Shown here piece after piece: positions 16,244 to 23,856 of a stretch of DNA of 64,000 nt. The notes under the pieces were generated by a model. The model saw only the letters and a list, made by a program, of their open reading frames with translations, ran no database searches and had not been told where the DNA came from. The translations under genes were made by a program, and so were the position numbers. The DNA is from Eledone cirrhosa (lineage: Eukaryota): contig CAXHJY010001352.1 in NCBI GenBank assembly GCA_964016885.1, positions 677-64,676 of the forward strand, given 5' to 3'. Position 1 is the first letter of the stretch; the number at the start of each line of letters is the position of its first letter.

Positions 16244-16459
16244 ATACATACATATATATATATATATACATACATATATATATATATATACATACATATA
16301 TATATATATATACATACATATATATATATATATACATACATATATATATACATACATATATATATACATACATATATATATATATACATACATATATATA
16401 TACATACATATATATATACATATATATATTATATATATATATATGAAACATACATATTA
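15460..16459. repeat. (TA)n/(TACA)n microsatellite with higher-order units
   Basis: Marker ttatatatat..atgaaacatacata recurs near 15723, 16053 and 16429. Confidence 0.9.
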
Positions 16460-16475
16460 TGATGTTAATATGTAT

Positions 16476-19400
16476 GTTAATATTATGATGTTCCCTGCTG
16501 TATTAGCGTTAAATTTTCCCTGCTGTATTAGCGATAAATTTTCGAGGGTTTCTCTTAGTAGCTTTTTTCATGACGTTATTATTGTTAATTTTACTGATGT
16601 AGTATTAACTTATTAACTTGGATATTTACCATGCGGTATTCTAATCCTATTGTATCTCTCTTCAGTTATTTACCATGCGACCCTCAGTTCCTACCCCCCC
16701 CCCCCCCCTCTATGCACTTCTTTAAGGCTTACTACCCTGTCTTTAACCTAATTCATTCAATCTGAAAATATTGAAGAGATAAGACACTTTGCCATTCTTC
16801 TCTGCTAAAATGTACCAGTAGAGCTGATTCAAATTTTCCCAGCCAGCCATCCACCTAATCTACGAAGGTATTTTAGCCTACATATTGTCGTTAATATTAT
16901 GATGTTCCCTGCTGTATTAGCGTTAAATTTTCCCTGCTGTATTAGCGATAAATTTTCGAGGGTTTCTCTTAGTAGCTTTTTCATGTCGTTAATATTATGA
17001 TGTTCCCTGCTGTATTAGCGTTAAATTTTCCCTGCTGTATTAGCGATAAATTTTCGAGGGTTTCTCTTAGTAGCTTTTTTCATGACGTTATTATTGTTAA
17101 TTTTACTGATGTAGTATTAACTTATTAACTTGGATATTTACCATGCGGTATTCTAATCCTATTGTATCTCTCTTCAGTTATTTACCATGCGACCCTCAGT
17201 TCCTACCCCCCCCCTCTATGCACTTCTTTAAGGCTTACTACCCTGTCTTTAACCTAATTCATTCAATCTGAAAATATTGAAGAGATAAGACACTTTGCCA
17301 TTCTTCTCTGCTAAAATGTACCAGTAGAGCTGATTCAAATTTTCCCAGCCAGCCATCCACCTAATCTACGAAGGTATTTTAGCCTACATATTGTCGTTAA
17401 TATTATGATGTTCCCTGCTGTATTAGCGTTAAATTTTCCCTGCTGTATTAGCGATAAATTTTCGAGGGTTTCTCTTAGTAGCTTTTTCATGTCGTTAATA
17501 TTATGATGTTCCCTGCTGTATTAGCGTTAAATTTTCCCTGCTGTATTAGCGATAAATTTTCGAGGGTTTCTCTTAGTAGCTTTTTTCATGACGTTATTAT
17601 TGTTAATTTTACTGATGTAGTATTAACTTATTAACTTGGATATTTACCATGCGGTATTCTAATCCTATTGTATCTCTCTTCAGTTATTTACCATGCGACC
17701 CTCAGTTCCTACCCCCCCCCCCCCTCTATGCACTTCTTTAAGGCTTACTACCCTGTCTTTAACCTAATTCATTCAATCTGAAAATATTGAAGAGATAAGA
17801 CACTTTGCCATTCTTCTCTGCTAAAATGTACCAGTAGAGCTGATTCAAATTTTCCCAGCCAGCCATCCACCTAATCTACGAAGGTATTTTAGCCTACATA
17901 TTGTCGTTAATATTATGATGTTCCCTGCTGTATTAGCGTTAAATTTTCCCTGCTGTATTAGCGATAAATTTTCGAGGGTTTCTCTTAGTAGCTTTTTCAT
18001 GTCGTTAATATTATGATGTTCCCTGCTGTATTAGCGTTAAATTTTCCCTGCTGTATTAGCGATAAATTTTCGAGGGTTTCTCTTAGTAGCTTTTTTCATG
18101 ACGTTATTATTGTTAATTTTACTGATGTAGTATTAACTTATTAACTTGGATATTTACCATGCGGTATTCTAATCCTATTGTATCTCTCTTCAGTTATTTA
18201 CCATGCGACCCTCAGTTCCTACCCCCCCCCCCTCTATGCACTTCTTTAAGGCTTACTACCCTGTCTTTAACCTAATTCATTCAATCTGAAAATATTGAAG
18301 AGATAAGACACTTTGCCATTCTTCTCTGCTAAAATGTACCAGTAGAGCTGATTCAAATTTTCCCAGCCAGCCATCCACCTAATCTACGAAGGTATTTTAG
18401 CCTACATATTGTCGTTAATATTATGATGTTCCCTGCTGTATTAGCGTTAAATTTTCCCTGCTGTATTAGCGATAAATTTTCGAGGGTTTCTCTTAGTAGC
18501 TTTTTCATGTCGTTAATATTATGATGTTCCCTGCTGTATTAGCGTTAAATTTTCCCTGCTGTATTAGCGATAAATTTTCGAGGGTTTCTCTTAGTAGCTT
18601 TTTTCATGACGTTATTATTGTTAATTTTACTGATGTAGTATTAACTTGGATATTTACCATGCGGTATTCTAATCCTATTGTATCTCTCTTCAGTTATTTA
18701 CCATGCGACCCTCAGTTCCTACCCCCCCCCCTCTATGCACTTCTTTAAGGCTTACTACCCTGTCTTTAACCTAATTCATTCAATCTGAAAATATTGAAGA
18801 GATAAGACACTTTGCCATTCTTCTCTGCTAAAATGTACCAGTAGAGCTGATTCAAATTTTCCCAGCCAGCCATCCACCTAATCTACGAAGGTATTTTAGC
18901 CTACATATTGTCGTTAATATTATGATGTTCCCTGCTGTATTAGCGTTAAATTTTCCCTGCTGTATTAGCGATAAATTTTCGAGGGTTTCTCTTAGTAGCT
19001 TTTTCATGTCGTTAATATTATGATGTTCCCTGCTGTATTAGCGTTAAATTTTCCCTGCTGTATTAGCGATAAATTTTCGAGGGTTTCTCTTAGTAGCTTT
19101 TTTCATGACGTTATTATTGTTAATTTTACTGATGTAGTATTAACTTATTAACTTGGATATTTACCATGCGGTATTCTAATCCTATTGTATCTCTCTTCAG
19201 TTATTTACCATGCGACCCTCAGTTCCTACCCCCCCCCCCCCTCTATGCACTTCTTTAAGGCTTACTACCCTGTCTTTAACCTAATTCATTCAATCTGAAA
19301 ATATTGAAGAGATAAGACACTTTGCCATTCTTCTCTGCTAAAATGTACCAGTAGAGCTGATTCAAATTTTCCCAGCCAGCCATCCACCTAATCTACGAAG

Positions 19401-23400: not shown

Positions 23401-23550
23401 CGCGGAGTGGGGAGACCCAAGATGACTTGGGATGAGGTGATAAAAGCCGACCTTACCCAACTACACCTCTCAAAGTCAATGACACACGACCGTGACTTCT
23501 GGCGTCACGCAGTAATACAGGGTACCCGACCTCCCATGGGTACATGCTGA
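20431..23550 (+). CDS. RTE-clade LINE ORF (1039 aa): APE endonuclease + RT with inserted PHD finger; intact
   Basis: [68 protein letters not shown]4HC3 finger; YLG; LHGSETW, RRLRWYGHV, GRPKMTW. Confidence 0.95.
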   Translation: MNLRATKHPREAPTQRPSPTSVDKCPKLRVGTINVGSMKGRAGEIVEMLERKEVDVCCVQETRWRGGSARVLVGKSQCYKFFWVGNDDGMGGVGILLADKWVDKVISVYRVNARIIKLRLVLNKTITTIISAYAPQSGLPDELKDRFYESLIHTTALTDDKDFLIIAGDFNGHVGKHCDGFNRVHGGHGVGTRNEEGFRLLEFCDANDMSICNTNFKKPDNHLITYRSGEHSSQLDFILIRGRDRWTVVNTKAFPSEECTSQHSLVVSDLTVRTRRALKQRPTWRRKIWKLKVPSTSNRFKDILLNAYDSKEEQIETFNVEENWEFLKNNLLEATDEVCGWSKTSSRRRVTWWWNNKVDEAVKAKRQAWKEWKNGGSRVHYIETKREARRQVYLARREAEDRKFKHVLQREDQKQEVFKIARQCVRDSCDVIGEKCIRNDKGELALTSAEKKDAWKSHYDRLLNEENAWEEETLPHVDPIEGPAVQVSGSVVSKAIRDMKIGKATGPSGIAAEMLKASGSVGHTITTRIVNQVILEGAIPKDWCSSIIVNCYKGKGDALDRGNYRGIKLMDQVMKVTERVIAQLIRDRVNIDEMQFGFVPGKGTTDALFLVRQLQEKYLAKSKPLYLAFVDLEKAFDRVPRAVIWWALRKLGVDEWLVKAVQAMYRGAVSKVRIGNEYSEEFSVQVGVHQGSVLSPLLFIIVLQAITEEFKTGCPWELLYADDLALIAESMVELENKFQTWKQGLERKGLKVNMTKTKVLISRRENRTQIPSGKWPCSVCRKGVGRNSILCPKCKQWVHKRCSGISGSLIKNVGFTCSSCAETASKQPQETSTTNLWEGPVETVDSFCYLGDRISNGGGCSESTITRVRTGWKKFRELLPLLAAKGFSLRMKGRLYDACIRTAMLHGSETWALKVEDLRRLERNEACMPRWMCNSNIRERQSINELRERLSIRGIKCCVQERRLRWYGHVMRMKDDSCIKRCRALEVDGNRGVGRPKMTWDEVIKADLTQLHLSKSMTHDRDFWRHAVIQGTRPPMGTC

Positions 23551-23856
23551 AGCATATAAACAATATGCCCCCCCCCCCCCCCACCGCAAGGTGGTCGTGG
23601 AGGTGCCACGGCAAAAAAGCACCCAGCCCACACTGTAAAGTGGACGTGTAGGCGCCACGAAAAAGCACCCAGCACTCACTGTAAATGAGGTTGGTGTTAG
23701 GAAGGGCATCCAGCTGTAGAAATCAAGCCAGATCAGTTCCTGTATGAGCAAGGCATGGTCAGCCGACCAGACACTGCCCACAACAGGACAACCCGTCTAA
23801 CCCATGCTAGCGTGGAAGAACGGACGTAAAACGGTGATGATGATGATGATGATGAT

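What the first reader, a model, noticed from the sequence alone, without database searches (positions are those of the whole stretch)
16447..23856. RTE retrotransposon with a 3.7-kb 5' array of ~505-bp tandem monomers (L1-monomer-like architecture)
Seen: a 5'-truncated monomer, six full monomers and a partial last monomer run without a break into a ~240-bp unique leader and an intact RTE ORF. The host microsatellite breaks at 16455 after 'gaaacatacata'. It resumes after the (GAT)n tail at 23856 with the sequence that follows that marker in the preceding unit, so array plus LINE look like a single 7.4-kb insertion. Known: mouse and rat L1 carry tandem 5' monomers that act as additive internal promoters, with the 5'-most monomer usually truncated; RTE elements normally have short, non-repetitive 5' UTRs. 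Inference: this RTE family may have independently evolved a self-regenerating monomeric promoter. Alternatively it retrotransposed a satellite read-through transcript. I do not know of a description of this architecture for RTEs.
Basis: partly seen in the sequence, partly recalled or inferred. Interest (0 to 1): 0.85.

Follow-up and report, generated by a model that had tools for sequence, protein, structure and literature searches.

The report
RTE retrotransposon with regrowing 5' array
A young, abundant jumping gene carries at its front a tandem array of ~400-500-base units that moves with it and reaches over 60 units in some copies, and the array is likely a repeated promoter that regrows in place after the front end is clipped, a design known from rodent L1 but not found by my searches for this class of element.

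Summary
Confirmed, and it is a family trait. The window holds one 7.4-kb insertion: a truncated monomer, six 499-510-bp monomers, a partial one, a 240-bp tether, a 1039-aa APE-RT-PHD ORF and (GAT)7. Genome-wide, 45 of 46 position-sampled monomer clusters run into the tether and ORF on the same strand. Monomer and element body co-vary (Mantel rho 0.74). Older subfamilies carry diverged monomers. A sister RTE family has an unrelated ~350-380-bp monomer. Arrays hold under 1 to 61 units and are homogeneous within a locus; the longest has duplicated blocks and is far too long for one reverse-transcription pass, so it likely grew in place. A one-off satellite read-through is thus unlikely. Promoter activity is untested: no RNA run was listed, and 5' ends do not cluster significantly (P=0.086), unlike mouse L1. 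Best reading: a mouse-L1-like monomeric promoter, clipped at each jump and regrown by DNA-level expansion. Nine literature searches found no such RTE. The scan earlier noted a LINE with a ~105-unit 5' array elsewhere in this genome (e1-8673048), possibly this family (not tested). Novelty: new variant of a known kind.

The parts
15461..16453 (.). Host (TA/TACA)n microsatellite with ~330-376-bp higher-order units, left of the insertion
16454..16885 (+). 5'-truncated first monomer (one 98-bp sub-repeat plus body), preceded by a short partial duplication of the monomer start; ATAT microhomology with the target
16886..19918 (+). Six full monomers of 499-510 bp (98-bp sub-repeat x2 plus ~310-bp body); T/C-rich sense strand; likely promoter units (untested)
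19919..20190 (+). Partial last monomer with an internal deletion of about 31 bp, shared by most young copies
20191..20430 (+). C-rich unique tether between array and ORF
20431..23550 (+). Single uninterrupted ORF, 1039 aa: APE endonuclease, reverse transcriptase, PHD finger
23551..23835 (+). 3' UTR with a ~50-bp internal duplication
23836..23856 (+). (GAT)7 tail
23857..26460 (.). Host microsatellite resumes; 289-bp exact match to the preceding unit
33993..37473 (-). Second copy of the same family, 99% identical, 5'-truncated just before the ATG (no tether, no array)

Best explanation
The array is the element's own 5' untranslated region, copied with the RTE ORF as one unit, and it likely works as a repeated internal promoter that is clipped at a random point in each jump and likely regrows in the chromosome by tandem duplication. 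Shown: linkage, co-inheritance of variants, random-looking 5' breakpoints, arrays of up to 61 units, duplicated blocks of units in the longest array. Inferred: (1) each unit can start RNA polymerase II transcription; (2) reverse transcription from the (GAT)n tail falls off about once per 1.2 kb, so copies that reach the array keep a random piece of it; (3) a copy with about two units can expand by unequal exchange or slippage and become a source element again. Repeating the promoter would thus protect the element against 5' truncation.
For: Linkage: 45 of 46 position-sampled clusters, 30 of 30 tether-anchored loci (including the window itself) and 12 of 12 score-picked arrays followed to their end join monomer, tether and ORF on one strand. 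An exact monomer-tether junction occurs 400 times, control 0. Co-inheritance: Mantel rho 0.74, P<=0.0002, 42 elements. One monomer SNP occurs at 13 sites only: all 12 units of one array and one unit of a second element. These two elements alone share a body SNP among the 53 compared. Persistence: older subfamilies (ORF 95-98% identical) carry diverged monomers of period 289-413 bp. A sister RTE family (ORF 72-74% identical in DNA) has a ~350-380-bp unit, repeated in 8 of 30 loci, with no detectable likeness to this one (score 38, shuffles 37 +/- 6). In-place growth: 0.09 differences within arrays against 2.13 between arrays over a ~150-bp segment of 244 units. The longest array has repeated blocks (run of 11 at lag 8; 0 of 2000 shuffles). 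6340 exact 3'-end matches against 400 junction matches give roughly 0.84 break-offs per kb, which fits the 0.9-kb median array but gives about 1e-13 for a 34.7-kb array. Analogy: mouse and rat monomers plus a ~250-bp tether hold the L1 promoter, and younger subfamilies have more monomers; the same trend appears here (rho -0.50, P=0.002, n=34).
Against: There is no direct evidence of transcription or promoter activity. In mouse L1 the 5' ends cluster at one monomer position. Here 74 mapped ends are spread out; the densest 20-bp window holds 13 (P=0.086) and lies at an AT-rich stretch where microhomology with (TA)n targets could produce it. The monomer is AT-rich with 8 CpG in 408 bp, unlike the CpG-island monomers of rodents. 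The conserved core among old subfamilies is partly circular, since those loci were picked by a 16-mer in that core. This genome expands many tandem repeats, including a 48-bp unit of an RTE 3' UTR, so long arrays need no function. The break-off rate rests on two exact patterns that may cover subfamilies unequally, and very long array lengths depend on the assembly.
Confidence: 0.6

Rival explanations
1. The arrays are built during insertion: the reverse transcriptase copies the 5'-most monomer repeatedly, by template jumping or on a circular monomer RNA, so each new copy lands with a fresh homogeneous array.
For: Arrays are homogeneous, with locus-specific variants. The longest arrays sit on the youngest bodies (0-5 differences from the majority). 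5' breakpoints are spread out. The window's 5' junction has a small partial duplication of the monomer start.
Against: Repeated blocks of several unlike units and internal copies of the deleted last-type unit (L154) fit segmental DNA duplication better than re-copying of one template. No ribozyme family reached its threshold and the monomer folds no better than shuffles (z -0.36). Most arrays are short and fit simple truncation.
Confidence: 0.15
2. The monomer is a passive passenger: a repeat captured once upstream of a source element, carried along in transcripts started by host promoters, and expanding because this genome expands any tandem repeat.
For: 5' ends do not cluster significantly. 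A review states that ribozyme-bearing RTEs lack their own promoters (PMC6765202, passage). A 48-bp unit of an RTE 3' UTR has expanded to 56 copies in this window.
Against: Only 1 of 46 clusters is a solo fragment and no free satellite was seen. The tandem design persisted while the monomer changed across subfamilies and recurs with an unrelated unit in a sister family; both suggest selection.
Confidence: 0.15
3. The monomer has a function other than starting transcription, for example as an enhancer, an anti-silencing or chromatin-opening element, or an RNA element for stability or translation.
For: It is retained across subfamilies yet shows no clear start-site signature. The sense strand is strongly T/C-biased in both families.
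Against: No conserved RNA fold or Rfam match. Several upstream ATGs per unit would hinder translation if all units were in the mRNA. The position and tether match the known promoter design.
Confidence: 0.08
4. The arrays are an assembly artefact of near-identical repeats.
For: Units are almost identical, poly-C lengths vary like homopolymer errors, and the window lies on a small contig (C1379).
Against: Hundreds of dispersed loci with different flanks carry locus-specific variants. A contig of a second sample of the same study spans the monomer-to-monomer joint (403-bp return, run X4). Only the exact counts in the longest arrays remain uncertain.
Confidence: 0.02

Closest known systems
Mouse L1Md A/Gf/Tf (~200-bp monomers) and rat L1 (~650-bp monomers) 5' UTR promoters (PMC5381506, passages; PMC9022269, abstract and passages)
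   Same: Tandem monomers, a ~250-bp tether, a truncated outermost unit, variable number, more units in younger subfamilies, and unrelated monomers in related families.
   Different: This is a single-ORF RTE-type element with AT-rich, CpG-poor units of 408-510 bp and a nested 98-bp sub-repeat. Its 5' ends are not significantly clustered. Arrays reach 61 units (34.7 kb), whereas 7 of 5765 mouse loci exceed 10 units. Promoter activity is shown for mouse and untested here.
RTE-clade elements: HmRTE-e01 (PMC2887409, passages) and Octopus vulgaris RTE-2_OV (PMC9115989, passages)
   Same: One ORF of ~1000-1100 aa with APE and RT, and a simple-repeat 3' end.
   Different: Their 5' UTRs are 276 bp and about 600 nt. 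The words monomer and tandem do not occur in the main text of PMC9115989, whose element comes from a transcriptome assembly that could collapse repeats; its supplements were not read. RTE-2_OV is said to have a C2H2 finger, and this ORF has a PHD finger after the RT.
Dictyostelium TRE5-A A-module (PMC3159450, passages)
   Same: A modular 200-bp 5' unit with promoter activity on a non-LTR element. That it occurs in tandem copies is recalled, not seen in the passages read.
   Different: Different clade, two ORFs, targets tRNA genes, short arrays.
Satellites grown from retrotransposon UTR repeats, such as PisTR-A from the Ogre 3' UTR and 18HT from HeT-A/TART (review PMC9659126, passages and table)
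   Same: A repeat inside a retroelement expands into a satellite-length array.
   Different: The retroelement UTR cases in the passages read come mostly from 3' UTRs or LTRs. Here the array is the 5' end and stays attached to young elements with uninterrupted ORFs.

Membership tests
RTE clade non-LTR retrotransposon | Single ORF of about 1000 aa with APE and RT, no ORF1 | tested here: met
   no ATG ORF over 84 aa upstream; definition from PMC2887409
RTE clade non-LTR retrotransposon | 3' end of short simple repeats rather than poly-A | tested here: met
   (GAT)n tail in the window and in the other copies with a 3' end
RTE clade non-LTR retrotransposon | RT groups with reference RTE elements in a tree | not testable with these tools
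   425 homologues at E<=1e-50, none named as RTE among the 120 listed. No named reference was on hand. Motifs such as RRLRWYGHV look RTE-like from recall only.
RTE clade non-LTR retrotransposon | Target-site duplication of 6-20 bp | tested here: inconclusive
   48 loci: nearly all junction matches are simple repeats (median 7 bp, mismatched-pair control 5 bp), because about 60% of flanks are TA-rich
RTE clade non-LTR retrotransposon | Short non-repetitive 5' UTR, in some members with an HDV-like ribozyme (typical, not defining) | tested here: not met
   Tandem array; no Rfam family near its threshold in 19300-20600
Rodent-L1-type monomeric 5' promoter (works-like comparison) | Tandem monomers of variable number plus a tether, mobilised with the element | tested here: met
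Rodent-L1-type monomeric 5' promoter (works-like comparison) | 5' ends cluster at a start position within the monomer | tested here: inconclusive
   13 of 74 ends in the densest 20-bp window, P=0.086
Rodent-L1-type monomeric 5' promoter (works-like comparison) | Monomers drive transcription | not testable with these tools
   needs CAGE, long cDNA or a reporter assay
Rodent-L1-type monomeric 5' promoter (works-like comparison) | CpG-island monomers; L1 clade with ORF1 and ORF2 | tested here: not met
   36% G+C, 8 CpG in 408 bp; single ORF. Not an L1.
Free satellite DNA | Arrays that exist independently of the retrotransposon | tested here: not met
   1 of 46 clusters unlinked, a 90-bp fragment; even the 34.7-kb array ends in the element

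The most novel reading that the evidence does not exclude
This RTE lineage survives 5' truncation by alternating two processes: retrotransposition clips a tandem promoter array, and satellite-type DNA expansion rebuilds it up to tens of kilobases, so that a few satellite-headed copies act as source elements. The lineage has recruited such an array at least twice from unrelated sequence, converging on the rodent L1 design and seeding new satellite DNA from promoters.
Probability: 0.4. Interest if true: 0.82.

Novelty: new variant of a known kind. Interest (0 to 1): 0.68.

Why it matters
How a LINE keeps an internal promoter when every copy loses its 5' end is an old question, and how rodent monomer arrays are renewed is, to my knowledge, unsettled. 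This family offers at least 400 young copies, arrays from under one to 61 units and traceable variants, so clipping and regrowth can be followed locus by locus. It would show that monomeric promoters arose by convergence in an invertebrate RTE lineage, and it ties an apparently active LINE to the birth of satellite arrays. It also implies that short-read and transcriptome consensus sequences of such RTEs may be missing their true 5' ends.

Tried and rejected
Expression: no RNA holder listed. Contigs of four runs of unrecorded kind were laid; they cannot show starts. The near-identical low-depth pieces in runs of organisms B and C were not interpreted. Ribozyme or structured RNA: 4 weak Rfam matches, all far below threshold; folding z -0.36 and +1.16; rejected. 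A long target-site duplication at the window locus was rejected, and TSDs family-wide were not resolvable. The first sister-family test mostly returned segmental duplicates of truncated copies and was uninformative; a tether-anchored search replaced it. Protein searches gave no named RTE reference. The SLACS search returned nothing relevant among the 10 papers listed, so trypanosome elements with 5' repeats remain recall only. The empty-site allele was not searched: the flanks are microsatellite and other repeats. Rows left out: one search kept elements with ORF identity of 97.5% or more and dropped 10 of 84 whose array ran off the locus; L056 and L057 may be one duplicated insertion and L060 is inverted. 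One search used 34 of 46 loci with a complete body. One search used 53 bodies, 42 with a scored monomer. A look-up of earlier findings by the monomer sequence returned nothing.

Full report
Observation. A truncated unit starts at 16454, six full units of 499-510 bp follow, then a partial unit, a 240-bp tether, an uninterrupted 1039-aa ORF at 20431-23550 and (GAT)7 ending at 23856. Pfam finds an APE-type endonuclease, a reverse transcriptase and a PHD finger. Each full unit is a 98-bp sub-repeat twice plus a 310-bp body; the core unit of the family is 408 bp. The host microsatellite continues across the element: 289 bp of exact match to the preceding unit, against 25-103 bp in six controls. A second copy in the window (37473-33993, 99% identical) breaks just before the ATG.

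Family-wide linkage. The genome is 3.0 Gb. I take it for an octopod from its repeat and zinc-finger content and from earlier notes; no call confirmed this. An exact 16-mer of the monomer occurs 1956 times, control 2. The first 100 sites along contig C1 fall into 46 clusters. I fetched all of them, and 45 run into the tether and ORF on the same strand; one is a 90-bp solo fragment. All 30 tether-anchored loci, the window included, have monomer sequence upstream. Of 30 loci anchored on the ORF start, 20 have monomers and 10 break within the tether or the first ORF bases; by inspection of their flanks none has another shared 5' end. Exact patterns count 6340 3' ends and 400 monomer-tether junctions. 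Of 53 bodies compared, 38 have the 1039-aa frame in register, and the youngest differ from the majority by 0-6 bases in 3.4 kb.

The monomer evolves with the element. Monomer and body distances correlate across 42 elements (Mantel rho 0.74, P<=0.0002). One monomer SNP has 13 sites in the genome: all 12 units of one array and the single unit of another full-length copy. These two alone share a body SNP. Older subfamilies carry diverged units with periods of 289-413 bp; their shared core is partly a product of my search word. A sister RTE family, 72-74% identical in ORF DNA, has a unit of 348-381 bp that is repeated next to its tether in 8 of 30 loci, and most of the others share the tether-proximal part of it. 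That unit shows no similarity to this one above shuffles, although many of the tethers share a ~50-bp stretch at about 80% identity. A single read-through of a free satellite does not explain this.

How arrays get their length. The 74 fully mapped arrays have a median of 0.9 kb and a maximum of 34.7 kb (this set is enriched for long arrays). The position-based sample averages 2.3 units, with 1 of 46 above 10. The drop from 6340 to 400 over 3.3 kb implies about 0.84 break-offs per kb (my arithmetic). That accounts for the common short arrays and allows the 3.7-kb array here (about 5%), but not arrays of 14 or 35 kb. Units within an array are nearly identical (0.09 against 2.13 differences between arrays), and the longest array contains repeated blocks of unlike units (0 of 2000 shuffles). 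The window's own units alternate long-short-long-short at the 3' end. I infer growth in the chromosome by unequal exchange or slippage. Repeated copying by the reverse transcriptase remains possible, since the longest arrays sit on the youngest bodies.

Is it a promoter? This is inferred, not shown. In favour are the position, the tether, retention across subfamilies, recurrence with an unrelated unit, and more units in younger copies (rho -0.50, n=34), all as in mouse L1 (PMC5381506, passages; PMC9022269, abstract and passages). Against: mouse 5' ends cluster at one monomer position, whereas these do not significantly (13 of 74 in the best 20-bp window, P=0.086), and the unit is CpG-poor. Spread ends are expected if nearly every copy is a truncation of a transcript from a long-array source, so this weakens the case without refuting it. 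No ribozyme or stable fold was found.

Comparison and novelty. The element meets the structural features of RTE given in PMC2887409 (passages); clade placement by tree could not be tested. Described RTE 5' UTRs are 276 bp and about 600 nt (RTE-2_OV, PMC9115989, passages). A review says that ribozyme-bearing RTEs lack their own promoters (PMC6765202, passages). Nine searches (listings and abstract starts, most subscription papers not covered) and term look-ups in PMC9115989, PMC13282606, PMC5753468 and PMC9659126 found no RTE with a tandem 5' array. Repbase entries and supplements were not seen and may describe one. Tandem 5' units are known in several mammalian L1s, and a modular 5' promoter in TRE5-A, so this is a new variant of a known kind. 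That is about 410 bp per unit and fits this core monomer, but I did not test whether it is the same family, and I read it after forming my reading.

Verdict. The feature is real and family-wide. The architecture is shown, in-place expansion is likely (about 0.75), and the promoter role is likely but untested (about 0.65). Interest 0.68.

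Noticed in passing
window 60676-63366: A 48-bp unit in 56 copies that matches the duplicated motif in the 3' UTR of a related RTE (75-82% to this element's 23614-23685); a 112-bp x3 version lies at 31426-31769.
   Followed up: partly
window 37473; L086, L098, L099, L100: 5' breakpoints pile up within about 20 bp upstream of the ATG (4 of the 10 short copies among 30, plus the window's second copy). 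This may be microhomology with (TA)n targets or a processing or pause site.
   Followed up: partly
G000:C2:403.806-403.844 Mb (L064-L068): A 34.7-kb array of 61 full units on an element whose body has no difference from the family majority.
   Followed up: yes
L074-L075 (G000:C1:59.592-59.596 Mb): The 98-bp sub-repeat expands on its own, to about 19 copies in a row, so the array varies at two levels.
   Followed up: partly
L163 (G000:C2:238.648 Mb): A full-length copy that lacks most of the tether: monomer poly-C joins about 20 bp before the ATG.
   Followed up: partly
L205, L210, L211, L214, L223, L227, L228, L229: The sister RTE family's unrelated ~350-380-bp 5' unit; the copies printed contain a TATA-like TATAAAATAAA or a close variant.
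   Followed up: partly
window 11656-15104 (+): Another LINE with APE, RT and zf-RVT domains over two frames (L1/Tx1-like by domain order; label recalled), G+C about 55%.
   Followed up: partly
window 1102-4809 (-): An intronless 1235-aa ORF with only a weak NHL-repeat match (E 0.0018), perhaps a multi-propeller protein; a 240-aa ORF continues at 435-1157.
   Followed up: no
window 40960-41670 and 51808-52529 (+): Two C2H2 zinc-finger arrays with 84-bp repeats.
   Followed up: partly
48 loci: About 60% of insertion flanks are TA-rich microsatellite (28 of 48 on the 5' side, 30 of 48 on the 3' side); no genome background was computed.
   Followed up: partly
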